8,511 nucleotides of DNA from a virus (IMGVR_UViG_3300028957_000063:1-8511), one strand, 5' to 3'; positions 2 through 8,511 are shown, numbered from the stretch's first letter. Made by a program: numbers and translations. The notes: generated by a model from the sequence alone, not told the origin.

Positions 2-1282
2 TTAATTTTTCATTGCTTCGTTATGGGGCATGGTTGGGGCAAACTCGCTTAACTGTGTATTTAACAAAGCTACCTGTGCATTATTGTTTTCAGACATCCA
101 TTTTCCGTATACCTGAAATACCATTTGCGCATCTGCATGGCCCATCTGGTTTGCTATAAATGCCGGGTTAGCACCAGCTGTCAGCGACCAGCAGGCATAA
201 GTATGTCTCGACTGATATGATTTTCGATGGCGGAGTCCGGCACGTTTTATCGCTGCGTCCCACATCTGCCTTATTGAGTCAACGGTAAAATGGTCACCAT
301 AATTTTTTACTCTCGCTGACACTTCAGGTTGAAAAACAAAGGTGCATTTATGTTTTTCTGTTCTGCCATACTCTCTGAGGTGAACATCAATGATATGCTC
401 TTTGCTCAGTCTCGTTAATGTCATCTGACTCCGGAGAGCGTCGATTGCTGGCTTAATAAGATGAATGACCCGATTGGTTCCCGCCTGTGTTTTTGGTACC
501 GTGAAACGGTCTTTTGCTAAATTTCTCCTGATCATCATTGTTCCATTTTTCAGATCTATGTCCTCCCATCCAAGTGCACACAGCTCACCAGGGCGAACGC
601 CAGTATAAACAGAAATACACCATAAATTTTTGGCTTGCTGATTTCTGCACGCATCGATAAGACGGATGAATTCCTCCCGCGAAAGAGGATCCGGAATGGT
701 TCTTGATTCCTTTAATGGCGAGATCCCCTTAAACGGGTTATCTGCCAGGTAACCGTTATCAACACCAAACTGGAACACGGCGTTAAGATTTGTCATGTAA
801 TTATTTACAGTTACAGCCGATCTCCCTGGTTGTGTAACAATATAGTTACTTTTGGGGATCTGGTATCCAGTCAGTAGCTCTTTACGAACCTCCAGTAATT
901 TTTCTTTATTAATCGATGAGGCAAGATTTTTTTCACCGATTATGCTCAGGATATTTTTGATGACGGCACGGTATGTGTTGAGTGATGTTTTGGCGACTTC
1001 ATTTTCTTTCAGTGCCAGAAATTTTTCAGCCAGTTCTTTTATGGTTAAATCTTGTCGGGCCTCACCAAATTTTTCCAGATTGCGTGATGAGGGAAACTGT
1101 TTTGCATAGTCGAAAACACCAGTTTTTATTGCGTAACAAACAGAGGAGCGTAGTTCACCTGCAACGCGCCTGTTTTTTGCTGTGTCAGGAACCCCCAGAT
1201 TTTCCCTGACTCTTACGCCTTTATAAACAAACCAGATACGTAATTTCCCTCCATGGTTTTCCACGCCTGTCGGATATTTCAT
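2..1282 (-). CDS. int: Tyrosine-type site-specific integrase (lambdoid, IntR/IntE-like with N-terminal arm-binding domain). The ORF is open to 1297, but the second ATG at 1282 (MKYPTG...) is the likelier start.
   Basis: Long ORF with stop at 2-4. N-terminus MKYPTGVENHGGKLRIWF resembles arm-binding integrases such as Rac IntR (from memory). C-terminal region HRKSYQSRHTYACW...GHAD fits the tyrosine-recombinase R..H-x-x-R..Y pattern. GAGAAG Shine-Dalgarno-like sequence precedes the second ATG, none precedes the first. Sits next to an excisionase-like ORF. Confidence 0.9.
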   Translation of the reverse strand: MKYPTGVENHGGKLRIWFVYKGVRVRENLGVPDTAKNRRVAGELRSSVCYAIKTGVFDYAKQFPSSRNLEKFGEARQDLTIKELAEKFLALKENEVAKTSLNTYRAVIKNILSIIGEKNLASSINKEKLLEVRKELLTGYQIPKSNYIVTQPGRSAVTVNNYMTNLNAVFQFGVDNGYLADNPFKGISPLKESRTIPDPLSREEFIRLIDACRNQQAKNLWCISVYTGVRPGELCALGWEDIDLKNGTMMIRRNLAKDRFTVPKTQAGTNRVIHLIKPAIDALRSQMTLTRLSKEHIIDVHLREYGRTEKHKCTFVFQPEVSARVKNYGDHFTVDSIRQMWDAAIKRAGLRHRKSYQSRHTYACWSLTAGANPAFIANQMGHADAQMVFQVYGKWMSENNNAQVALLNTQLSEFAPTMPHNEAMKN

Positions 1283-1316
1283 TTCAACTTCTCTCATTAG
1301 TTAGTGTGGCTTTTAG

Positions 1317-1568
1317 TCAAGTAAGATGACGTCTTGGTCTCGCTGATGCCTGGCGCTCAATCCAGCGATCAATTTCTTCCAGGTTGTAAAAGCATGGACT
1401 GTTATCCCATGGCATACCGTCATGAGCGACATGCTTATATTCCCTTCCTTCCATAAACGATTTTTCCCGGGCCTTTTTTAACGTACCTTTTTTTATTCCT
1501 TTCAGCGCAATTAACTGCTCTTCGGATACCCATTTGCCGGGAGAGACAATCATGATTACTTCGCTCAT
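1317..1568 (-). CDS. xis: Excisionase-like small DNA-binding protein (83 aa), possibly the DUF1233-type putative excisionase family
   Basis: Small basic ORF immediately upstream of int on the same strand, 19 bp from the int start region. The family call rests on int-xis gene order and size; the sequence was not aligned to any known Xis. Alternative start at 1553 (MIVSPGKW). Confidence 0.6.
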   Translation of the reverse strand: MSEVIMIVSPGKWVSEEQLIALKGIKKGTLKKAREKSFMEGREYKHVAHDGMPWDNSPCFYNLEEIDRWIERQASARPRRHLT

Positions 1569-1597: not shown

Positions 1598-1629
1598 CGC
1601 CGGTTGCAGAATACCAGTCACAACCGGCG
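1598..1629 (-). other. Stem-loop between the exonuclease-like gene and xis
   Basis: 9-bp perfect stem CGCCGGTTG / CAACCGGCG with a 14-nt loop. No U-tract follows on the minus strand, so it is not a classic terminator. Confidence 0.4.
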
Positions 1630-1640
1630 ACAGTTGAACA

Positions 1641-4016
1641 TTAAGAATCAGCCTGACTCGGGATCAGTTTTTGCCAGATAACTGAAACGTATTTTGCCTG
1701 GTAACGGGCGTCATCAAGTGCATTATGGCGCTCACCTTCGAATGGAATAGCCGTTCTGGCATCGAAGTCTATGGCTTTCCCCAGCTCAACGATTGTGCGT
1801 ACATCGCGATCGTTGTAGTAACGCCACGGGCAGGGGATCCCCTGCCGTTCGTATGAACGGCGCAAAATCGTGTTGTCGAAGTTGGCTCCATTTCCCCAGA
1901 CCTGAACAAAAAATTCACCGGAGTTTTCGTCGATAAATTCCCGCAATTGTAACAGTGCATCATCTAACGGGATTTCATCGGTCATAATGGCAGATTGCGC
2001 TTCGCGTGATTGCTTAAGCCACCATTTAATGGTGTCCCGATCAATGACTCCGCCAGCAGTTTCCAGATCGATAGTCTTACTAAATTCCGGTCCCATATCT
2101 CCGGTTTGCGGATCGAAAAATATTGCACCTATTGAGATGATCGGGGCATCAGGATTTTTTCCCATGGTTTCAAGGTCGATCATTAGATGGTCACACGTCC
2201 TGCTGGTGGATGTGATTTCGTGATGACCGTTCACCGCAATTAAGGGATCTGCCGTCTCGCCAGTTTCATTATCGCTATTGTGATGCTGATTGCCGCCAGT
2301 GTTCTCCTTGTGTGGATGTTCAGCGCCTTCCATTTCCTCCGGATCATTTTCCTGAACTTCAACCTGATTCTCTTCATTGAATGTTTCCTGGTATGTTGCG
2401 TCGCCCATCACCGCGCCACAATCAGGGCAGTTGCCGCCACCGCTCTGACCGCAGGCGGTGCAGACTTTTTCCGTTTCTTGTTGGTTCTGGTTCACTGAAT
2501 CGCGGATTTCAATCCCCTTCACCCATTTCGGATCATTCGGGTCGCTAATTCCTGCAACAAATTCACCGCGAGAGGCCGCAAGCAACTTATCGGCGTCAGG
2601 CTGGCTGATATTGGCTGCCTGCATAATTTTGTTTACTTCGTCAGCGGTAACTTTTACCGGCTCTGGTTGTGCGGTCGTGTCAGATGCACCAGTATTTTGT
2701 TGTGAACCTGAGTACGTGCCGTTTTTACGTGCGAAGTATTCCTCTTTTGTGATTTCCGTAGCTCCCAAGGCCAGTGCTTTTTCCAGACCAGAAAGTTTGT
2801 TTGCGCGACCGTATTTTTCGCCGTCCTTATCGGTGAAAAGGAAATAGAACGGCCCCTCTCGTTCTACAGATGATTCGGCTTCCACTTCGCATTCGGTTTT
2901 TTCGTTGTTCGGCATTGCCGTTTCCACTGCATCAGCTTCTGGTACTGGCGACGGGAGAGTATCAGTTGCGCTCTGATTTGTTCCTTCATCTTCAAACACG
3001 CCCTTTGTAGTCAGGTATTCAGTGATGTATTTGTTCAGCGCCACAGGATCTTTGTGAATGTCGATCGGACGTTCACGAACGAGGCCGAAAATAGTCTGGC
3101 AGCTGTAGTGAAGCGCATCAGGCTGTTTGCGCATTGATGCGGAGATGCGCTTCCAGTCTTCGCGATCCTTGTCGATAACTTCATTTTTTGCCCAGCGATG
3201 GATGCTGCCGTCAATGTTTCCTGCATCAATATCACCAGGCCAGAGAGCGCAGGCCAGTTCTTCATCCAGTGTTTTCCATGTCTGCTTGTATTCGCGACGA
3301 ATGGCGGCAGTGGCGGGGTTGATTTTTCCTGCTGAGTTTTCAGTGTGCTGCCGGTTGACTCTGGCGCGGGCAAGATCAACAACAGACGTGTATTTCCCGG
3401 TTTCTTTGCGTTCGGCTTCGCGACGTTTTTTCCAGGTGCGTAATTCTGTCTGGATCTCAGGCCATTTTGCACCCGGCTTACATTTATGTTTAACCCACCC
3501 GATGGCGAGCAGTTTTAGTTCTGAATACATGACGTTAACTTCAGGCATTTTCATCAATGCCTCAACGATATGCCCGTCGAATGTTGCCATGTCCTCCTGC
3601 AACAATTCCTGTGCACTAATCACCATATCAACGGTGATGTTTTCACATGTACCGAACTTAACCAGGACCGCGTTCTGTACTTCAAGGGACAGCTTGTCAA
3701 AATTGACGTTCATCGGATCGGATTCTGGTTCGACCGGAACAAAGGAAGCGCCTTCCTCATCCCAGCGGTTTTCCAGCATATATTCGGTATCCCAGGAGTC
3801 GATGGCAGGGCGGGGCATGCCGGGTTTATCCTCGCAGACAAGAAATTTATAAGCGCAGTCCTGAGCAGCCGGATATTGCTCCAGGAATTGCCAGGTAAAT
3901 TTGGCACGGGCGCGGCGTTCGTCGCCGGCTTCAATGGCAGTGGCTACAGCGACTGCACCTTCTTCCTTTATTGCCTGTTCGTCCGGAATGGCGGCGCAAA
4001 TAAAGACTTTACTCAT
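1641..4016 (-). CDS. Large prophage protein (791 aa) with a C-terminal DnaQ-like DEDDh 3'-5' exonuclease domain, a CxxC-x10-CxxC zinc-ribbon motif and an acidic linker. Proteins of this kind are often annotated exodeoxyribonuclease VIII-like.
   Basis: Uninterrupted 2376-nt ORF. Exonuclease motifs read in the translation: MIDLETMG (D-x-E, encoded from 2183 downward), WGNGANFD and HNALDDA (H-x4-D). Cys cluster VCTACGQSGGGNCPDCG is encoded at about 2400-2462. Occupies the position of the recombination module (exo/bet or recE) in lambdoid prophages. Confidence 0.8.
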   Translation of the reverse strand: MSKVFICAAIPDEQAIKEEGAVAVATAIEAGDERRARAKFTWQFLEQYPAAQDCAYKFLVCEDKPGMPRPAIDSWDTEYMLENRWDEEGASFVPVEPESDPMNVNFDKLSLEVQNAVLVKFGTCENITVDMVISAQELLQEDMATFDGHIVEALMKMPEVNVMYSELKLLAIGWVKHKCKPGAKWPEIQTELRTWKKRREAERKETGKYTSVVDLARARVNRQHTENSAGKINPATAAIRREYKQTWKTLDEELACALWPGDIDAGNIDGSIHRWAKNEVIDKDREDWKRISASMRKQPDALHYSCQTIFGLVRERPIDIHKDPVALNKYITEYLTTKGVFEDEGTNQSATDTLPSPVPEADAVETAMPNNEKTECEVEAESSVEREGPFYFLFTDKDGEKYGRANKLSGLEKALALGATEITKEEYFARKNGTYSGSQQNTGASDTTAQPEPVKVTADEVNKIMQAANISQPDADKLLAASRGEFVAGISDPNDPKWVKGIEIRDSVNQNQQETEKVCTACGQSGGGNCPDCGAVMGDATYQETFNEENQVEVQENDPEEMEGAEHPHKENTGGNQHHNSDNETGETADPLIAVNGHHEITSTSRTCDHLMIDLETMGKNPDAPIISIGAIFFDPQTGDMGPEFSKTIDLETAGGVIDRDTIKWWLKQSREAQSAIMTDEIPLDDALLQLREFIDENSGEFFVQVWGNGANFDNTILRRSYERQGIPCPWRYYNDRDVRTIVELGKAIDFDARTAIPFEGERHNALDDARYQAKYVSVIWQKLIPSQADS

Positions 4017-4302: not shown

Positions 4303-4485
4303 TCAGCGTCCTTTTTGCATCAGGCGTAAACGGGCCAGCATTGAAACAATGCATATTTGATTTAATAGCTCCCGTTCGTGTTTTCTCTTATTAATGGCAT
4401 CTTCAGTAAATACAGGGTTACTGATTCTGACACCAATTTCAAAACAACCTTCAGACGTATTGACGTTTGGTAATAACGTTTCCAT
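4303..4485 (-). CDS. Hypothetical small protein (60 aa)
   Basis: ATG at 4483-4485 with a GAGGA Shine-Dalgarno sequence about 7 nt upstream. Co-oriented with and tightly coupled to the next small ORF. No family recognised. Confidence 0.5.
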   Translation of the reverse strand: METLLPNVNTSEGCFEIGVRISNPVFTEDAINKRKHERELLNQICIVSMLARLRLMQKGR

Positions 4486-4502: not shown

Positions 4503-4662
4503 TGAATTTTGTGATGCGGTGCCTGGTGCCTCCAGGTGACGTTAACCAGTTAACAATTAACGCCGGATACAGGGAAACCCATAAACACCCGATACGGGGG
4601 AACTAATCGCTTTTTAACTGTTCCGCGTGCGCTGAGCCGCATTCACCGCATCACAAAATTCA
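4503..4662. repeat. Perfect 19-bp inverted repeat pair flanking a 122-bp core
   Basis: TGAATTTTGTGATGCGGTG at 4503-4521 is the exact reverse complement of 4644-4662. The core contains hairpin CCTGG-TGCCT-CCAGG (4522-4536) and three closely spaced TTAAC/GTTAAC copies (4550-4570). Confidence 0.7.
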
Positions 4663-5693: not shown

Positions 5694-5912
5694 TTAACGT
5701 GGGTATGTAATCATTCTTGCAATGCTTAATGCCGCTGCTTTTTCCAGCCTGGTGATATCCTGCTCCAGAGCGGACAGATTTTCAGCCTGCTTAGCCCTGG
5801 CTTCATTGGCCCATTTCAGATCCTGCGCTGCATTAATTTTCTGGCGCATCCACTCATAAAGTTCATCATCGGTATAGTCTGGCGCGATGATGACGGGTTC
5901 TCGTTTCTGCAT
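5694..5912 (-). CDS. Hypothetical small protein (72 aa)
   Basis: ATG at 5910-5912 preceded by GAGGAA. An in-frame TAA lies just upstream at the gap edge, so it is an independent ORF and not a continuation of the gene broken by the N-run. Confidence 0.55.
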   Translation of the reverse strand: MQKREPVIIAPDYTDDELYEWMRQKINAAQDLKWANEARAKQAENLSALEQDITRLEKAAALSIARMITYPR

Positions 5913-5952
5913 ACTGATTCCTCGCGGTGCTGCTTCGCTTATCAGGCGTTAG

Positions 5953-5987
5953 NNNNNNNNNNNNNNNNNNNNNNNNNNNNNNNNNNN
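5953..5987. other. Run of 35 ambiguous bases (N): assembly gap or masked segment of unknown true length
   Basis: Directly visible in the sequence. Confidence 0.99.
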
Positions 5988-6054
5988 CTTCGCCTTCGGC
6001 AAGGCCTTCGAAGTATTCTTCGTAAGCCTTTTCCATGATTGTGTCGAAATCCAT
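5988..6054 (-). CDS. 5' fragment of a small prophage gene (MDFDTIMEKAYEEYFEGLAEGE...) truncated by the N-run. Possibly a YdaF/DUF1391-like protein, but this is very uncertain.
   Basis: ATG at 6052-6054 with AGGTGA upstream. The preceding gene's TGA ends 1 nt before this ATG. The reading frame runs into the 5953-5987 N-run, so the 3' end is unknown. Confidence 0.35.
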
Positions 6055-6055
6055 A

Positions 6056-6211
6056 TCACTCACCTGAGTTTCTTTCCAGCCAGCGACGGGCACCATTTTC
6101 GGTTTTAAACGTTTTGCTTTTGGTATACGTCATCGCGGTGAATGTGCCGTCCTGGTTGGGAAACACGCCGTACACCAGAGATTCGTTGTTGCCAAGATCG
6201 ATAGTATCCAT
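6056..6211 (-). CDS. Small prophage protein (51 aa, MDTIDLGNNESLVYGVFPNQDGTF...), possibly YdaG-like
   Basis: ATG at 6209-6211 with GAGGT 5 nt upstream. It is the first gene downstream of the putative leftward promoter region. The longer ORF-track start at 6265 has no Shine-Dalgarno sequence. The family guess is from memory only. Confidence 0.5.
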   Translation of the reverse strand: MDTIDLGNNESLVYGVFPNQDGTFTAMTYTKSKTFKTENGARRWLERNSGE

Positions 6212-6265
6212 GTTGACCTCATTTCCCCTTAACGCCGGGGTAGCGGAACTGTTTGCTGAGAACAC

Positions 6266-6414
6266 CGTGCGGTGTCTTGATGAATAAAATTTAGAATAAC
6301 CTAAGGTGGATGGTCAAGGTTTTTGTGTAGAAAAACCTAAGTTTTTTTGATGTAAAAAACACAAGTGTTTGAAAGTTTGTGCTTTTTATTACAGGGTGTG
6401 GAGAAAAAAGGGGG
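6266..6414 (-). promoter_or_regulatory. AT-rich intergenic region downstream of the repressor gene: putative leftward early promoter (pL analogue) with operator-like sites
   Basis: On the minus strand, TTGACC (complement of 6313-6318) is followed about 18 nt later by TAAATT. Operator-like imperfect palindromes at 6289-6306 (ATTTAGAATAACCTAAGG) and 6325-6342 (GTGTAGAAAAACCTAAGT) share the TAG-N6-CTAAG core with the pR-side sites. Confidence 0.4.
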
Positions 6415-6822
6415 TTATTTGTTTGCGCTTCTTTTGCGAGCTTTGAGTAGTTCTTCAAAAAGTTTGTTGAAATTTTCAACTCGAGCACGCATCTCTGACA
6501 ACAGGGCCTTTTGCTCTGACTCAGGCAGTGCGTCGAACAGTTGAAGTAACTCTTTTTGATCTTCTGTCAGAATGGCTGGTTGATTATCCGGGAGCGGTTC
6601 GCCTGGTTGTTTATCTTCATCCCCAAAAAGAAGCCAAGTCGGTGAGCACTGAAGCGCTTGGCTCAGTGCGAATAATCTTTTCCCCGCCGGCTGTGTTTCA
6701 TCTCTTTCCCATTGAGAAATTGTTACGTGAGCCACTTTGACCAGCTTACCTAATGCGGCCTGAGACAGTTTTAATTTTTTACGCCTATGTAAGAGGCGAG
6801 CACCGAAGGTTTCGTTTTTCAT
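6415..6822 (-). CDS. dicA: Prophage repressor, HTH XRE-family, DicA-like (cI analogue), 135 aa
   Basis: N-terminal HTH (LSQAALGKLVKVAHVTISQWER). Strong resemblance from memory to E. coli DicA (blocks such as LFALS..LQCSPTWxLFGDEDKQP and EMRARVxNFNKLFEELLKAR). Divergently arranged with a Cro/DicC-like gene. Confidence 0.85.
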   Translation of the reverse strand: MKNETFGARLLHRRKKLKLSQAALGKLVKVAHVTISQWERDETQPAGKRLFALSQALQCSPTWLLFGDEDKQPGEPLPDNQPAILTEDQKELLQLFDALPESEQKALLSEMRARVENFNKLFEELLKARKRSANK

Positions 6823-6898
6823 ATTAGGGAATTCTAATTTTTCTTGACTTAGGTTTCTCTACGATCTAGTTTCCTTAGGAAAATCTAAGGAGTTCGAT
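6823..6898. promoter_or_regulatory. Divergent promoter/operator region between the repressor and the cro-like gene (oR/pR/pRM analogue)
   Basis: Rightward -35 TTGACT (6844-6849), 17-bp spacer, -10 TAGTTT (6867-6872), then AAGGAG Shine-Dalgarno sequence 6 nt before ATG 6899. Palindrome CCTTAG-GAAAAT-CTAAGG at 6873-6890 and a weaker copy at 6847-6864 overlap the promoter elements. Confidence 0.55.
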
Positions 6899-7126
6899 AT
6901 GTTGAAAATTGATGCTATAGCGTTTTTTGGCAGCAAAACAAAGCTTGCCAATGCCGCAGGAGTTAGGCTGGCAAGCATTGCTGCATGGGGGGAACTGGTT
7001 CCTGAAGGTCGCGCGATGCGCCTGCAAGAGGCATCCGGCGGGGAACTTCAGTACGACCCTAAAGTTTATGACGAATATCGTAAGGCAAAGCGGGCGGGGC
7101 GGTTGAACAATGAAAATCACCCCTGA
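6899..7126 (+). CDS. dicC: Cro-like regulator, DicC/YdaS-like (75 aa)
   Basis: Small ORF divergent from the DicA-like repressor with a strong AAGGAG Shine-Dalgarno sequence. Translation resembles DicC from memory (FGSKTKLA..AG.RLAS...LVPEGRAMRLQEASGGELQYDP...). Confidence 0.8.
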   Translation: MLKIDAIAFFGSKTKLANAAGVRLASIAAWGELVPEGRAMRLQEASGGELQYDPKVYDEYRKAKRAGRLNNENHP

Positions 7127-7661
7127 ACAGGTTTGTGAGGCTCTGGATGCCTGGGTATGCCGACCAGGAATGACACAGGAGCAGGCGACGATATTAATCA
7201 CGGAAGCATTCTGGGCTCTGAAAGAACGCCCGAACATTGATGTTCAACGCGTCACGTTTGATGATGGCGCGGTTGATCAACGGGCACTGGGCGTTAACCG
7301 GGTGAAGATATTCGAACGCTGGAAAGCTATCGACACCAGGGATAAGCGTGAAAAATTCACGGCGCTGATTCCGGCAATTATGGAGGCTATCCGGATCAGC
7401 GATTTCAGGTTGTATTGTGAAATTACTGACGGAAAAAGCATTACGTACATGATCGCCGGGTTAAACAAAGAATATGGCGATGTGGTGGAGTCCGGGCTGC
7501 TTTTTGCGGATCCAGCTGTTGTGGAGCGTGAGACTGACGAGCTTATAGAAAAAGCTATTGCTTTCAAGCATGCGTATCGTCAGCAATACCAACATTACTT
7601 TGCAGATAAACAAATATCTGTCTGGGGTTCGTATGAGTATCGATGCACTACGATGGGCTAA
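7110..7661 (+). CDS. Prophage early regulatory protein at the cII position (183 aa), possibly CII(CP76)-like or YdaT-like
   Basis: ORF starts inside the last codons of the cro-like gene (17-nt overlap, different frame) and ends at TAA 7659-7661. Family assignment is from position and size only. Confidence 0.6.
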   Translation: MKITPEQVCEALDAWVCRPGMTQEQATILITEAFWALKERPNIDVQRVTFDDGAVDQRALGVNRVKIFERWKAIDTRDKREKFTALIPAIMEAIRISDFRLYCEITDGKSITYMIAGLNKEYGDVVESGLLFADPAVVERETDELIEKAIAFKHAYRQQYQHYFADKQISVWGSYEYRCTTMG

Positions 7662-8511
7662 AAAGGTGAAAACCGGCAGTTCATCCAGCAAGTCAGTATT
7701 GACCTGGCTTGCTGATATGTGCGGTGCCGATTTGTGTGCATACCCGTCTGTATCTGCACTGGCAGAAGTAACGGAACTGAACAAAAAGACTGTGCAGGAC
7801 AGCTTACGACACCTGATGGAGATTGGGTTAATTGTTGATACCGGTGAGAGAAAAGGCAGAACAAAGCAAATTGTGGTGTACCGACTTATCGGTGTAGAAG
7901 AAAGTGTTGCCGAGCCTGAATACACCCAAAAACGGGAGTCTTTAAAGGTGGGTAAAATTGGTGCTGTTAATAAAAACAGTACCGAAAATGGTTATGTTTC
8001 AGCACAAAACAGCCCCAAAAACGGAACTCTTAGCTGCATGGAAAATAACCAAAGACACCCAAATTTTCCATCAAAGACACCCAAAAACGGATCACGGAAC
8101 CCAAAGGAACCCAAAGATCTAACCCCCACACATAACGCACGCGAGAGTGCTCCGACCAGTGAGCAGGAAGTTTTGTCGTTACAGGCAGCACCCCCTGTAT
8201 TCCTGGGTGGCCTGAGCGAACCCATCGGAAAATTTCCGATGACCGATAGCTGGTATCCGTCACGGGATTTTCGACGACGGGCTGCGTTGTGGGGGATGGC
8301 TTTGCCGGAGACAGAATTTACACCTGCTGAACTTGCCGCCTTCCGGGACTACTGGGCAGCGGAGGGGAAAGTATTTACGCAGATTCAGTGGGAGCAGAAA
8401 TTCGCCCGTCACGTAAATCACGTCAGGGCGCAGGTTAAACCAGTCAGCAAGGGGGTGAACCATGCAGCAGCACCAGGTGGCACCGCATCACGGGCAGTTC
8501 AGGAAATTCGG
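7633..8511 (+). CDS. Phage replication initiation protein (O-like: N-terminal winged-helix/HTH, C-terminal DnaT-like region), 3' end beyond the window
   Basis: Open frame from ATG 7633 to the window end with no stop (hand-translated: MSIDALRWAKKVKTGSSSSKSVLTWLADMCGADL...). Not in the ORF track, presumably because it has no stop in the window. Overlaps the upstream gene by 29 nt. The C-terminal part (FRDYWAAEGKVFTQIQWEQKFARH) looks like DnaT-type replication proteins. Iteron-like repeats lie in the linker. Confidence 0.75.
   Translation, partial: MSIDALRWAKKVKTGSSSSKSVLTWLADMCGADLCAYPSVSALAEVTELNKKTVQDSLRHLMEIGLIVDTGERKGRTKQIVVYRLIGVEESVAEPEYTQKRESLKVGKIGAVNKNSTENGYVSAQNSPKNGTLSCMENNQRHPNFPSKTPKNGSRNPKEPKDLTPTHNARESAPTSEQEVLSLQAAPPVFLGGLSEPIGKFPMTDSWYPSRDFRRRAALWGMALPETEFTPAELAAFRDYWAAEGKVFTQIQWEQKFARHVNHVRAQVKPVSKGVNHAAAPGGTASRAVQEIR
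7922..8115. repeat. Iteron-like direct repeats inside the replication gene: putative phage origin of replication
   Basis: Core CCCAAAAACGG occurs three times (7925-7935, 8014-8024, 8080-8090). There is a further ACACCCAAA copy at 8055-8063 and a tandem GGAACCCAAA x2 at 8096-8115. The block lies in the linker of the O-like gene, as the ori does in lambda O. Confidence 0.5.

What the first reader, a model, noticed from the sequence alone, without database searches (positions are those of the whole stretch)
6899..7661. DicA/DicC-type immunity switch in a lambda-like layout, with overlapping cro-like and cII-position genes
The DicA-like repressor and DicC-like Cro drive a lambda-like layout (repressor with the leftward operon; cro, a cII-position gene and the replication gene rightward). 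The 183-aa gene begins 17 nt inside the cro-like gene, and the replication gene begins 29 nt inside the 183-aa gene, which suggests tight translational coupling. The 183-aa protein is of uncertain family (CII/CP76-like or YdaT-like); members of the YdaS/YdaT pair have been described as toxin-antitoxin-like, so its role in lysis-lysogeny versus toxicity is open.
Basis: partly seen in the sequence, partly recalled or inferred. Interest (0 to 1): 0.4.

Follow-up and report, generated by a model that had tools for sequence, protein, structure and literature searches.

The report
Prophage lysogeny switch with YdaT regulator
This is the ordinary immunity region of a very common E. coli lambda-like prophage, and its 183-aa gene encodes a YdaT-family regulator that plays the role of lambda CII, with likely binding sites at its own start codon and in front of the excision/integration genes.

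Summary
A DicA repressor (6415-6822, minus strand) faces a DicC/Cro gene (6899-7126). A 183-aa gene (7110-7661) starts 17 nt inside cro, and a replication gene (7633 onward) starts 29 nt inside the 183-aa gene. RefSeq annotates the same coordinates in a 98.5% identical prophage.

The 183-aa protein belongs to the YdaT family. It passes the Pfam cut-off, matches the PHROG "CII-like activator" family, and its model's best structural matches are the two YdaT crystal structures. It does not match lambda CII or CP76. Published work on Rac and CP-933P already treats YdaS/YdaT as Cro/CII analogues, not a toxin-antitoxin pair. The finding is therefore a new member of a known kind.

First, an 18-bp YdaT-box (7103-7120) straddles the start codon in the same register as the footprinted Rac box. 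Second, a near-identical box (1634-1651) lies just upstream of xis-int. The same pairing occurs in five lineages, including Rac. A -10-like hexamer follows 20-21 nt leftward in 15 of 18 boxes, which puts the box centre near -41.5. This suggests PRE-like and PI-like promoters activated by the protein.

Translational coupling is plausible but not conserved. The 3' overlap is a by-product of a mosaic joint.

The parts
6415..6822 (-). DicA-type repressor gene (CI analogue), 135 aa
   Evidence: NCBIfam DicA 236 bits. Pfam HTH_3. 62% identical to K-12 Qin DicA.
6824..6888 (.). OR-like region with three operators of the form TTAG-N6-CTAA, at 6824-6837, 6849-6862 and 6875-6888
   Evidence: Pattern search gives 8 strand matches against 0.21 expected, and all fall in the two regulatory regions. 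K-12 Qin has the same operator frame.
6844..6872 (+). PR-like promoter candidate, TTGACT-17 nt-TAGTTT, overlapping operators 2 and 3
   Evidence: Read directly from the sequence. It falls below the scan threshold, so this is an inference.
6288..6340 (-). PL/dicBp-like promoter (TTGACC-18-TAAATT) with two operators at 6291-6304 and 6327-6340
   Evidence: Promoter scan. Operator pattern.
6899..7126 (+). DicC / P22-Cro-type cro gene, 75 aa
   Evidence: NCBIfam DicC 168 bits. Pfam P22_Cro 49.7 bits. PDB 1rzs P22 Cro at 2.5e-7. 84% identical to K-12 DicC.
7103..7120 (.). YdaT-box 1, TTGAAC AATGAA AATCAC, with the 183-aa gene's ATG (7110) in the spacer. It lies inside the last codons of cro.
   Evidence: Same register as the footprinted Rac box ATGATT CATGAA AATCAA (PMC11879457). 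A TGA-N10-TCA box sits in register in 13 of 16 family loci whose upstream genes differ in family and frame.
7077..7082 (-). -10-like hexamer TACGAT, 20 nt leftward of box 1. Predicted PRE-like promoter with a start near 7070, reading antisense through cro towards dicA.
   Evidence: A -10-like hexamer lies at offset 20-21 in 15 of 18 boxes, against a background of 0.011 per position. The start site is inferred, not mapped.
7110..7661 (+). 183-aa YdaT-family gene (CII-position regulator)
   Evidence: Pfam YdaT_toxin 26.3 bits, cut-off 21. PHROG_163 at 1.4e-41. The top six Foldseek matches are 8bt1 and 3c4r. K-12 YdfX matches residues 1-93 at 91% identity.
7633..8511 (+). Replication initiator gene, cut by the window end. 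N-terminal HTH plus a DnaT-like C-terminal domain, with iterons at 7919-8115.
   Evidence: PHROG_1032 at 3.6e-90 from residue 1. Pfam DnaT domain. Direct repeats AAnACACCCAAAAACGG.
1634..1651 (.). YdaT-box 2, TTGAAC ATTAAG AATCAG, straddling the stop codon of the 791-aa exonuclease gene, 65-82 nt upstream of the xis ATG
   Evidence: It is the only site in the window within 1 mismatch (of 12 specified positions) of box 1. It occupies the same position in Raoultella, Salmonella, Rac and phage Evi. Present in 39 of 40 related viral contigs.
1598..1629 (-). GC-rich hairpin (stems 1629-1621 and 1606-1598). Its loop holds an extended -10, TGgTATTCT (1616-1608). Predicted PI-like start near 1601.
   Evidence: Fold -17.5 kcal/mol, z = -2.9. 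At least six unrelated flank types each carry a hairpin at the same place. The -10 lies at offset 20.
2..1568 (-). xis (1317-1568) and int (2-1297), the proposed targets of the PI-like promoter
   Evidence: PHROG_539 excisionase at 1.4e-35, aligned from residue 1. Integrase ORF, annotated as integrase in related phages.

Best explanation
The region is the immunity and early-right control region of a common E. coli lambdoid prophage of the ompW-integrating PPompW type.

DicA (the CI analogue) and DicC (the Cro analogue) compete for TTAG-N6-CTAA operators at a PR-like and a PL-like promoter. The 183-aa gene encodes a YdaT-family DNA-binding protein, which is the functional analogue of lambda CII but is not its homologue.

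The protein is made from the PR-like transcript after cro. I propose that it binds an 18-bp pseudo-palindrome (TGAWY-N6-RWTCA) at two places. One site lies over its own start codon (7103-7120). The other lies just upstream of xis-int (1634-1651). From a position centred near -41.5, it would activate two leftward promoters that lack a -35 element.

The first would be a PRE-like promoter. Its RNA runs antisense through cro and into dicA. The second would be a PI-like promoter for xis and int. Together they would push an infecting phage towards lysogeny.

What is shown here: gene identities, overlaps, family membership, the operators, both boxes, and their conserved spacing to -10-like hexamers. 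What is inferred: binding, activation, the start sites and the effect on lysogeny.
For: Family membership:
- Pfam YdaT_toxin scores above its gathering cut-off.
- PHROG_163 'CII-like transcriptional activator' matches at 1.4e-41 over residues 1-159.
- A profile of the subfamily hits only YdaT structures in the PDB, 8bt1 at 1.5e-3 and 3c4r at 2.7e-3.
- The AlphaFold model has pLDDT 75-90 in the N-terminal domain. Its six best Foldseek hits are all 8bt1 or 3c4r, with probability 0.99-1.00, TM-score normalised to the target 0.53-0.58, and the next hit at E = 0.88.
- In the recognition helix, R70 is invariant and W71 nearly so. They align with the conserved RW pair of the two YdaT crystal-structure proteins, and the Rac paper reports R57/W58 as needed for DNA binding (PMC11879457).

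Genomic context: the order repressor, cro, ydaT, replication gene holds in every locus that could be read.

Function of relatives:
- CP-933P YdaT activates a PRE-like promoter (PMC8630535) and binds TTGATT-N6-AATCAA at the ydaS/ydaT junction (PMC9986795).
- Rac YdaT binds ATGATT CATGAA AATCAA over its own ATG and activates racR expression 29-fold (PMC11879457).

Cis elements found here:
- Box 1 is in the same register in 13 of 16 loci.
- Box 2 is the best or joint-best non-self match in the window, Raoultella, Salmonella and Rac, always just upstream of xis-int, and the half-sites vary together between lineages. Phage Evi shows the same.
- -10-like hexamers peak sharply at 20-21 nt leftward of the boxes.
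- In Rac, xisR and intR mRNA rise about 100-fold when RacR is depleted (PMC11014345). That is consistent with this model but has other explanations.
Against: No binding, transcript or phenotype data exist for this 183-aa subfamily.

Sequence similarity to the characterised YdaT proteins is weak, about 26% identity and E near 1e-3. The C-terminal half of the model is low confidence, so tetramerisation is unverified.

Box 1 in this window is the least symmetric of the family (3 of 6).

Part of the right half-site is constrained by codons 2-4 (M-K-I-T).

The predicted -10 elements are weak (4 of 6).

The published Rac model places the activated promoter about 190 bp from the box, and the CP-933P papers place the start inside the box. 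Neither start was mapped.

A promoter upstream of xis would express Xis as well as Int, unlike lambda PI.

Box 2 travels with the 3' end of the exonuclease gene, so its conservation among E. coli relatives is not independent evidence.

Three phi80-type phages with longer CII-like proteins have no second box near int.

Confidence: 0.72

Rival explanations
1. The cro-like and 183-aa genes form a YdaS/YdaT-type toxin-antitoxin pair, and the 183-aa protein is a toxin.
For: The Pfam family is named 'YdaT_toxin' and PGAP names the gene 'toxin YdaT family protein'. Ectopic Rac YdaT causes filamentation and death (PMC5700377, PMC11879457).
Against: The protein has a DNA-binding helix-turn-helix fold and sits at the CII position in intact phages. 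Direct tests found no toxin-antitoxin behaviour (cited in PMC5917428 and PMC8630535). CP-933P YdaT is not toxic (PMC8630535). Rac toxicity is attributed to off-target activation of host rcsA, which the CP-933P homologue does not share (PMC11879457). The partner here is a P22-Cro/DicC protein, not an antitoxin.
Confidence: 0.04
2. The 183-aa protein binds box 1 mainly as a repressor or roadblock. It would shut off its own gene and the downstream replication gene, and would not activate leftward promoters.
For: Box 1 covers the ribosome-binding spacer and start codon. The structural paper calls YdaT a 'CII repressor' (PMC9986795). In Rac, YdaT also binds over the ydaS promoter (PMC11879457).
Against: In Rac, ydaT expression changed little whether or not the box was intact, whereas leftward expression rose 29-fold (PMC11879457). 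Box 2 has no gene start to block. The fixed 20-21 nt spacing to a leftward -10-like hexamer is what an activator site would show, not a roadblock.
Confidence: 0.14
3. The two 'boxes' are not protein-binding sites. Box 1 reflects coding and translation-initiation constraints. Box 2 is a short homology patch at a recombination joint.
For: Box 1 overlaps the ribosome-binding spacer and codons 1-4. Box 2 sits exactly at a mosaic boundary between the exonuclease gene and variable xis modules.
Against: The left half of box 1 is conserved although upstream genes differ in family and reading frame. Box 2 has no start codon, yet it matches box 1 at 10-12 of 12 positions in four lineages with unrelated int/xis modules. 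The Rac and CP-933P boxes are footprinted (PMC11879457, PMC9986795).
Confidence: 0.08

Closest known systems
YdaT of prophages Rac (E. coli K-12) and CP-933P (O157:H7); PDB 8bt1 and 3c4r; Pfam PF06254
   Same: Same Pfam family and fold. Same conserved R-W in the recognition helix. Same gene position between a cro-like gene and a replication gene. Same 18-bp inverted-repeat box with the gene's ATG in the spacer.
   Different: Only about 26% identical. 183 aa against 140-141 aa. Half-sites are TTGAAC/AATCAC rather than (A/T)TGATT/AATCAA. It is paired with a DicA/DicC switch instead of RacR/YdaS or PaaR2/YdaS. It has not been tested experimentally.
Bacteriophage lambda CII with its promoters PRE and PI
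   Same: Same position in the genome and the same proposed logic. The protein is made from PR after cro. It would activate a leftward promoter antisense to cro that feeds the repressor gene, and a second promoter for integration functions. Both promoters lack a usable -35.
   Different: No sequence relationship: no CII family among the Pfam hits at E <= 0.01. The site is an inverted repeat centred near -41.5, not direct TTGC repeats flanking -35. The PI-like site lies upstream of xis, not inside it. No CIII analogue was identified.
DicA/DicC switch of cryptic prophage Qin (E. coli K-12)
   Same: DicC is 84% identical and DicA 62% identical. Same TTAG-N6-CTAA operator frame. Same leftward ydfA-ydfC-dicB operon. 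Same 17-nt overlap and the same box at the dicC/ydfX junction.
   Different: In Qin the YdaT-like gene is a 96-aa remnant, ydfX with ydfW, and the replication module is gone. Here both are intact. No DicF sRNA was detected here.

Membership tests
YdaT family (Pfam PF06254; CII functional analogues) | Sequence match to the family model above its curated cut-off | tested here: met
   PF06254 scores 26.3 bits against a cut-off of 21, over residues 59-131. PHROG_163 matches at 1.4e-41. The precomputed PF06254 label appears on nearly all homologues.
YdaT family (Pfam PF06254; CII functional analogues) | POU-like helix-turn-helix N-terminal domain followed by a long C-terminal helix | tested here: met
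   The N-terminal domain of the model has pLDDT 75-90. The top six Foldseek PDB hits are 8bt1 or 3c4r, with probability 0.99-1.00 and TM-score normalised to the target 0.53-0.58. A C-terminal helix at 135-181 is predicted, but at low confidence.
YdaT family (Pfam PF06254; CII functional analogues) | Conserved Arg-Trp in the recognition helix (R57/W58 in Rac) | tested here: met
   R70 is invariant and W71 is nearly invariant in a 21-sequence family alignment. They align with the RW pair of the 8bt1 and 3c4r proteins.
YdaT family (Pfam PF06254; CII functional analogues) | Gene lies directly after a cro-like gene, divergent from the repressor, ahead of the replication genes | tested here: met
   Seen in the window and in 10 related loci.
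YdaT family (Pfam PF06254; CII functional analogues) | Inverted-repeat YdaT-box (xTGAxx-N6-xxTCAx) at the cro/ydaT junction | tested here: met
   TTGAAC AATGAA AATCAC at 7103-7120, in register with the Rac box. Actual binding could not be tested.
YdaT family (Pfam PF06254; CII functional analogues) | Tetramer that binds DNA and activates a leftward promoter | not testable with these tools
   Needs protein biochemistry and reporter assays.
Lambda CII (Pfam Phage_CII) or phage 186 CII (Pfam Phage_CP76) | Sequence match to the family model | tested here: not met
   A Pfam scan at E <= 0.01 returned only YdaT_toxin.
Type II toxin-antitoxin pair | A toxin neutralised by an adjacent antitoxin, with an operon autoregulated by the complex | not testable with these tools
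   The upstream partner is a DicC/P22-Cro protein. The literature rejects toxin-antitoxin behaviour for YdaS/YdaT (PMC8630535, PMC5917428).
DicA/DicC lambdoid immunity switch | DicA and DicC proteins encoded divergently | tested here: met
   NCBIfam DicA scores 236 bits (cut-off 101) and DicC 168 bits (cut-off 130).
DicA/DicC lambdoid immunity switch | Repeated operators at both the dicC promoter and the leftward (dicB) promoter | tested here: met
   Three plus two TTAG-N6-CTAA sites, significant against shuffles. Qin uses the same frame. Three operators per region are described for Qin (PMC10448788), whereas only two were found at the left promoter here.
DicA/DicC lambdoid immunity switch | Leftward operon carrying ydfA, ydfC and dicB | tested here: met
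   DUF1391/YdfA. DicB is 92% identical to the K-12 protein. The YdfC-like ORF matches PHROG_1744.

The most novel reading that the evidence does not exclude
YdaT-family proteins may be class-II-type activators, with their site centred near -41.5. They would control a conserved regulon of two leftward promoters: a PRE analogue whose box straddles the ydaT start codon, and a PI analogue immediately upstream of xis-int.

I did not find the PI analogue described in the Rac or CP-933P papers I read. Its -10 element lies in the loop of a GC-rich hairpin. Read-through transcripts from upstream would carry the whole hairpin. Transcripts started by YdaT would carry only its 3' arm. The hairpin could therefore distinguish the two kinds of transcript.

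For Rac, this would move the YdaT-activated promoter from the published site about 190 bp away to a TATGAT hexamer 20 nt from the box.
Probability: 0.45. Interest if true: 0.55.

Novelty: new member of a known kind. Interest (0 to 1): 0.35.

Why it matters
The region as flagged is routine. Matches to it occur in about half of complete E. coli genomes (2719 of 5426), and 747 genomes hold at least 80% of it. Its parts are annotated, although under the misleading name 'toxin YdaT family protein'.

The useful outcome is a concrete, testable model for how this widespread CII substitute works. It names two predicted binding sites and two predicted start sites in this window. The box-to--10 spacing rule holds across the family, and a second box upstream of xis-int was found in five lineages. 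If confirmed, the model would extend the YdaT regulon to integration and excision genes. It would also refine the published Rac model and support renaming the family. These prophages include relatives in Shiga-toxin-producing strains, where lysogeny control matters for toxin-phage biology.

Tried and rejected
- CP76 or lambda CII membership: neither family was among the Pfam hits at E <= 0.01.
- Toxin-antitoxin reading: rejected on fold, genomic context and the literature.
- An OOP-like antisense RNA at the 3' end of the gene: no minus-strand terminator was found in 6200-7750.
- An RNA structure enforcing translational coupling: a local stem pairs GGGG (7096-7099) with CCCC (7120-7123), but the region folds no better than shuffles (z = 0.08). 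The junction with the replication gene gave z = -1.2.
- DicF sRNA: absent at the Rfam gathering score. Only a sub-threshold STnc100 match was found.
- Covariation test of the xis hairpin on a MAFFT alignment: the stems were not aligned, so the result was uninformative. I folded each flank type separately instead.
The genome scan with the narrower alignment returned only 9 loci.
- The second-box rule in phi80-type phages (mEp237, HK639, Klebsiella phage 5): no box near int. Their box lies at codons 17-22 of a longer annotated gene.
- Klebsiella phage Kp4882-1: its second-best box lies to the right of ydaT, and the record has no annotation, so it could not be interpreted.

Full report
**1. What is in the window.**
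The ORF list and family scans show the left arm and immunity region of a lambdoid prophage. The minus strand carries:
- int (2-1297) and xis (1317-1568; PHROG excisionase);
- a 791-aa exonuclease gene (1641-4016);
- a DUF1482 gene;
- DicB (4303-4485, 92% identical to K-12 DicB);
- a YdfC-like gene and a DUF1391/YdfA-like gene;
- a DicA-type repressor (6415-6822; NCBIfam DicA 236 bits against a cut-off of 101).

The plus strand carries:
- a DicC/P22-Cro-type gene (6899-7126; NCBIfam DicC 168 bits; PDB P22 Cro at 2.5e-7);
- the 183-aa gene (7110-7661);
- a replication initiator that starts at 7633 (PHROG_1032 at 3.6e-90, with a DnaT-like C-terminal domain).

The DNA is 98.5% identical to a prophage of E. 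coli O145:H28, and 97% identical to the ompW-integrating 'PPompW' phages of Shiga-toxin strains. Matches occur in 2719 of 5426 complete E. coli genomes.

**2.
The overlaps are 17 nt (7110-7126) and 29 nt (7633-7661). PGAP annotates the same coordinates in the near-identical prophage.

ATG 7110 is the only plausible start. An in-frame stop lies two codons upstream. Predicted pairing of the upstream region with the 16S rRNA anti-Shine-Dalgarno sequence is -7.2 kcal/mol, within the top ~6% of positions. The next in-frame ATG (codon 21) scores -3.7 and would remove a conserved helix. Homologues down to about 25% identity begin at the same Met.

ATG 7633 has the best ribosome-binding score among in-frame candidates for the replication gene, and the PHROG profile aligns from residue 1. 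Antisense ORFs across the region match nothing.

**3. The switch.**
Five sites of the form (T/G)TAG-N6-CTAA occur in the window, and all lie in the two regulatory regions. Three are between dicA and dicC (6824-6837, 6849-6862, 6875-6888). Two overlap a leftward promoter-like site downstream of dicA (6291-6304, 6327-6340; promoter TTGACC-18-TAAATT). That is 8 strand matches against 0.21 expected.

K-12 Qin uses the same operator frame. Published work describes DicA/DicC as a functional CI/Cro-like bistable switch with operators at both promoters (PMC10448788).

**4. Identity of the 183-aa protein.**
The evidence points to the YdaT family:
- Pfam YdaT_toxin scores 26.3 bits against a cut-off of 21.
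- PHROG_163 'CII-like transcriptional activator' matches at 1.4e-41 over residues 1-159.
- No lambda CII or CP76 family is among the Pfam hits at E <= 0.01.
- A profile of the subfamily finds only the two YdaT crystal structures in the PDB (8bt1 at 1.5e-3, 3c4r at 2.7e-3).
- An AlphaFold model (N-terminal domain pLDDT 75-90, C-terminal half low) has 8bt1 and 3c4r chains as its six best Foldseek hits (probability 0.99-1.00). The next hit is at E = 0.88.
- In the recognition helix, R70 is invariant and W71 nearly so. They align with the RW pair of the 8bt1 and 3c4r proteins.

The family is small: 83 clusters at 50% identity among 1.84 billion representatives. K-12's YdfX (96 aa) is a truncated copy, 91% identical over residues 1-93, with the same 17-nt overlap with dicC.

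**5. What the literature says.**
- Jobling (PMC5917428) argued from context that YdaS and YdaT are Cro and CII equivalents.
- Jurenas et al. (PMC8630535) showed that CP-933P YdaT is non-toxic and activates a PRE-like promoter.
- Prolic-Kalinsek et al. (PMC9986795) solved the structure, a tetramer with a POU-like domain. They footprinted TTGATT-N6-AATCAA at the ydaS/ydaT junction.
- The 2025 NAR paper (PMC11879457) footprinted ATGATT CATGAA AATCAA over the Rac ydaT start codon. It showed box-dependent 29-fold activation of leftward expression towards racR. It attributed Rac YdaT toxicity to activation of host rcsA, which the CP-933P homologue does not cause.

**6. A YdaT-box at the start codon.**
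The window has TTGAAC AATGAA AATCAC at 7103-7120. ATG 7110 sits in the spacer, in exactly the register of the footprinted Rac box.

I aligned 16 family loci on their start codons. Thirteen have xTGAxx-xATGxx-xxTCAx in that register. The upstream cro-like genes belong to different families (DicC/P22-Cro or YdaS) and cross the left half-site in different reading frames. The conservation is therefore in the DNA, not in the upstream protein. The 17 nt that the two genes share are essentially this box.

**7. A second box upstream of xis-int.**
The only other site in the window within one mismatch (of 12 specified positions) of box 1 is TTGAAC ATTAAG AATCAG at 1634-1651. It straddles the exonuclease stop codon, 65-82 nt upstream of the xis ATG.

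Other lineages show the same arrangement, with half-sites that change together:
- Raoultella: TTGAAC-N6-GATCAG at the ydaT start, and a perfect copy between the preceding gene and Exc.
- Salmonella: CTGAAC-N6-GATCAG, and TTGAAC-N6-GATCAA upstream of its xis-like gene.
- Rac K-12: ATGATT-N6-AATCAA, and CTGATT ATTAAT AATCAA between rcbA and xisR.
- Phage Evi, which has a CP-933P-type YdaT.

In each locus this is the best or joint-best non-self match.

Among 40 related viral contigs with at least 6 kb of upstream sequence, 39 carry a second box. Box 2 stays with the 3' end of the exonuclease gene, while the xis side changes among at least six unrelated sequence types.

The Rac and CP-933P papers I read do not mention a YdaT site at xisR. 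One of them reports that xisR and intR mRNA rise about 100-fold when RacR is depleted (PMC11014345). Three phi80-type phages with longer CII-like proteins lack a second box near int, so the rule is not universal.

**8. Promoter geometry.**
On the leftward strand, a -10-like hexamer (TAnnnT, at least 4 of 6) lies 20-21 nt after the box in 15 of 18 boxes. That is 8 of 11 start-codon boxes and 7 of 7 xis boxes. The background rate is 0.011 per position, and the rightward strand shows no peak. Evi and Kp4882-1 add TACAAT and TATCAT at offset 21.

This spacing puts the box centre near -41.5, the usual position of class II activators (a point of general knowledge). No -35 element is present.

In the window the elements are TACGAT (7082-7077), with a predicted start near 7070, and TGgTATTCT (1616-1608), with a predicted start near 1601. 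In Rac, TATGAT lies 20 nt from the footprinted box. The published model instead credits a promoter about 190 bp away. The published reporter construct keeps the box at its natural distance, about 190 bp upstream of that promoter, so the intervening DNA with this TATGAT should be present and the two readings are not distinguished.

**9. The hairpin at the xis side.**
In every flank type, a GC-rich stem of 9-14 bp follows box 2, and the -10-like hexamer lies in or beside its loop. The stems differ in sequence but remain complementary (z from -1.8 to -5.2). In the window the stems are 1629-1621 and 1606-1598.

A transcript that starts near 1601 would lack the 5' arm. Read-through transcripts from upstream would contain the whole hairpin. 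Whether this affects processing or xis translation is speculation.

**10. The overlaps.**
Across the family, the cro/ydaT junction varies from overlaps of 20, 17, 7 or 4 nt to gaps of 10-55 nt. The ydaT/replication junction varies from overlaps of 47, 29, 20, 14 or 1 nt to gaps of 12-440 nt.

Compared with phage PhiR42_1, high identity runs from about 7000 to 7599 and then drops to background. The last 20 or so codons of the 183-aa ORF therefore belong to replication-module DNA. They differ from the 173-aa and 165-aa variants. The 29-nt overlap is a by-product of a mosaic joint.

Coupling at the 5' junction remains possible. A small stem pairs the ribosome-binding site with bases just after the AUG, but the fold is no better than chance.

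**11. Verdict.**
The finding is real and its reading is mostly right, but it describes a known kind of system. The 183-aa protein is an uncharacterised subfamily member of the YdaT CII analogues.

The added value is the two-box, fixed-spacing architecture. It gives a specific and testable mechanism, and it may extend the known YdaT regulon to xis-int.

Noticed in passing
window 1598-1651 (also L028 2380-2439, L030 2690-2753, L031 2460-2521, L117 5700-5777): A second YdaT-box lies directly upstream of xis-int. It is followed by a GC-rich hairpin whose loop holds a -10-like hexamer. The arrangement is conserved in five lineages with unrelated xis/int modules. I did not find it in the Rac or CP-933P papers I read.
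   Followed up: partly
L031 (E. coli K-12 Rac) 9640-9695: A 5/6 -10-like hexamer, TATGAT, lies 20 nt leftward of the footprinted Rac YdaT-box. The published model assigns YdaT activation to PracR4, about 190 bp away. The published reporter keeps the box at its natural distance from PracR4, so it should also include this TATGAT.
   Followed up: partly
window 6291-6340 and 6824-6888: Five TTAG-N6-CTAA operators, two at the leftward promoter and three between dicA and dicC. K-12 Qin has the same frame with different central bases (L115 2369, 2419 and 2915), which suggests a different immunity specificity.
   Followed up: partly
L115 (K-12 Qin) 1675-2137: K-12 ydfX (96 aa), probably together with ydfW, is a truncated remnant of this 183-aa gene. 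It is 91% identical over residues 1-93. It keeps the 17-nt overlap with dicC and the box TTGAACAATGAAAATCAC.
   Followed up: yes
window 7919-8115: Direct repeats, AAnACACCCAAAAACGG three times and CAAAGACACCCAAA three times, lie inside the replication gene between its HTH and DnaT-like domains. They are probably origin iterons, as in lambda O.
   Followed up: no
window ~7000 and ~7599: Mosaic joints relative to phage PhiR42_1. The 3' part of cro (from about codon 34) plus ydaT up to about codon 163 travel together as one module. The 5' part of cro, dicA and the replication gene are unrelated or much more diverged.
   Followed up: partly
window 5953-5987: A run of 35 N (masked sequence) lies inside the ydfB/ydfC-like region and produces X residues in ORF 5866-6096.
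   Followed up: no
window 4508-4660 (-): A sub-threshold Rfam match to sRNA STnc100 (34.3 bits against a gathering score of 47, E = 1.6e-5) lies just upstream of dicB, where Qin carries DicF. No DicF match was found.
   Followed up: partly
window 1641-4016 (-): The 791-aa 'exonuclease', named exodeoxyribonuclease VIII in some phage records, has a C-terminal Rv2179c-like 3'-5' exoribonuclease domain (PF16473, 227 bits). It does not have the RecE domain (PF06630) found at the same position in the Rac-like loci.
   Followed up: no
L032 10920-10985, L033 10905-10970, L034 9524-9589: In phi80-type phages (mEp237, HK639, Klebsiella phage 5) the YdaT-box lies at codons 17-22 of a longer annotated CII-like gene. 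In mEp237 and HK639 an ATG forms the start of the left half-site. The annotated starts may be too far upstream, or these proteins have a real N-terminal extension.
   Followed up: no
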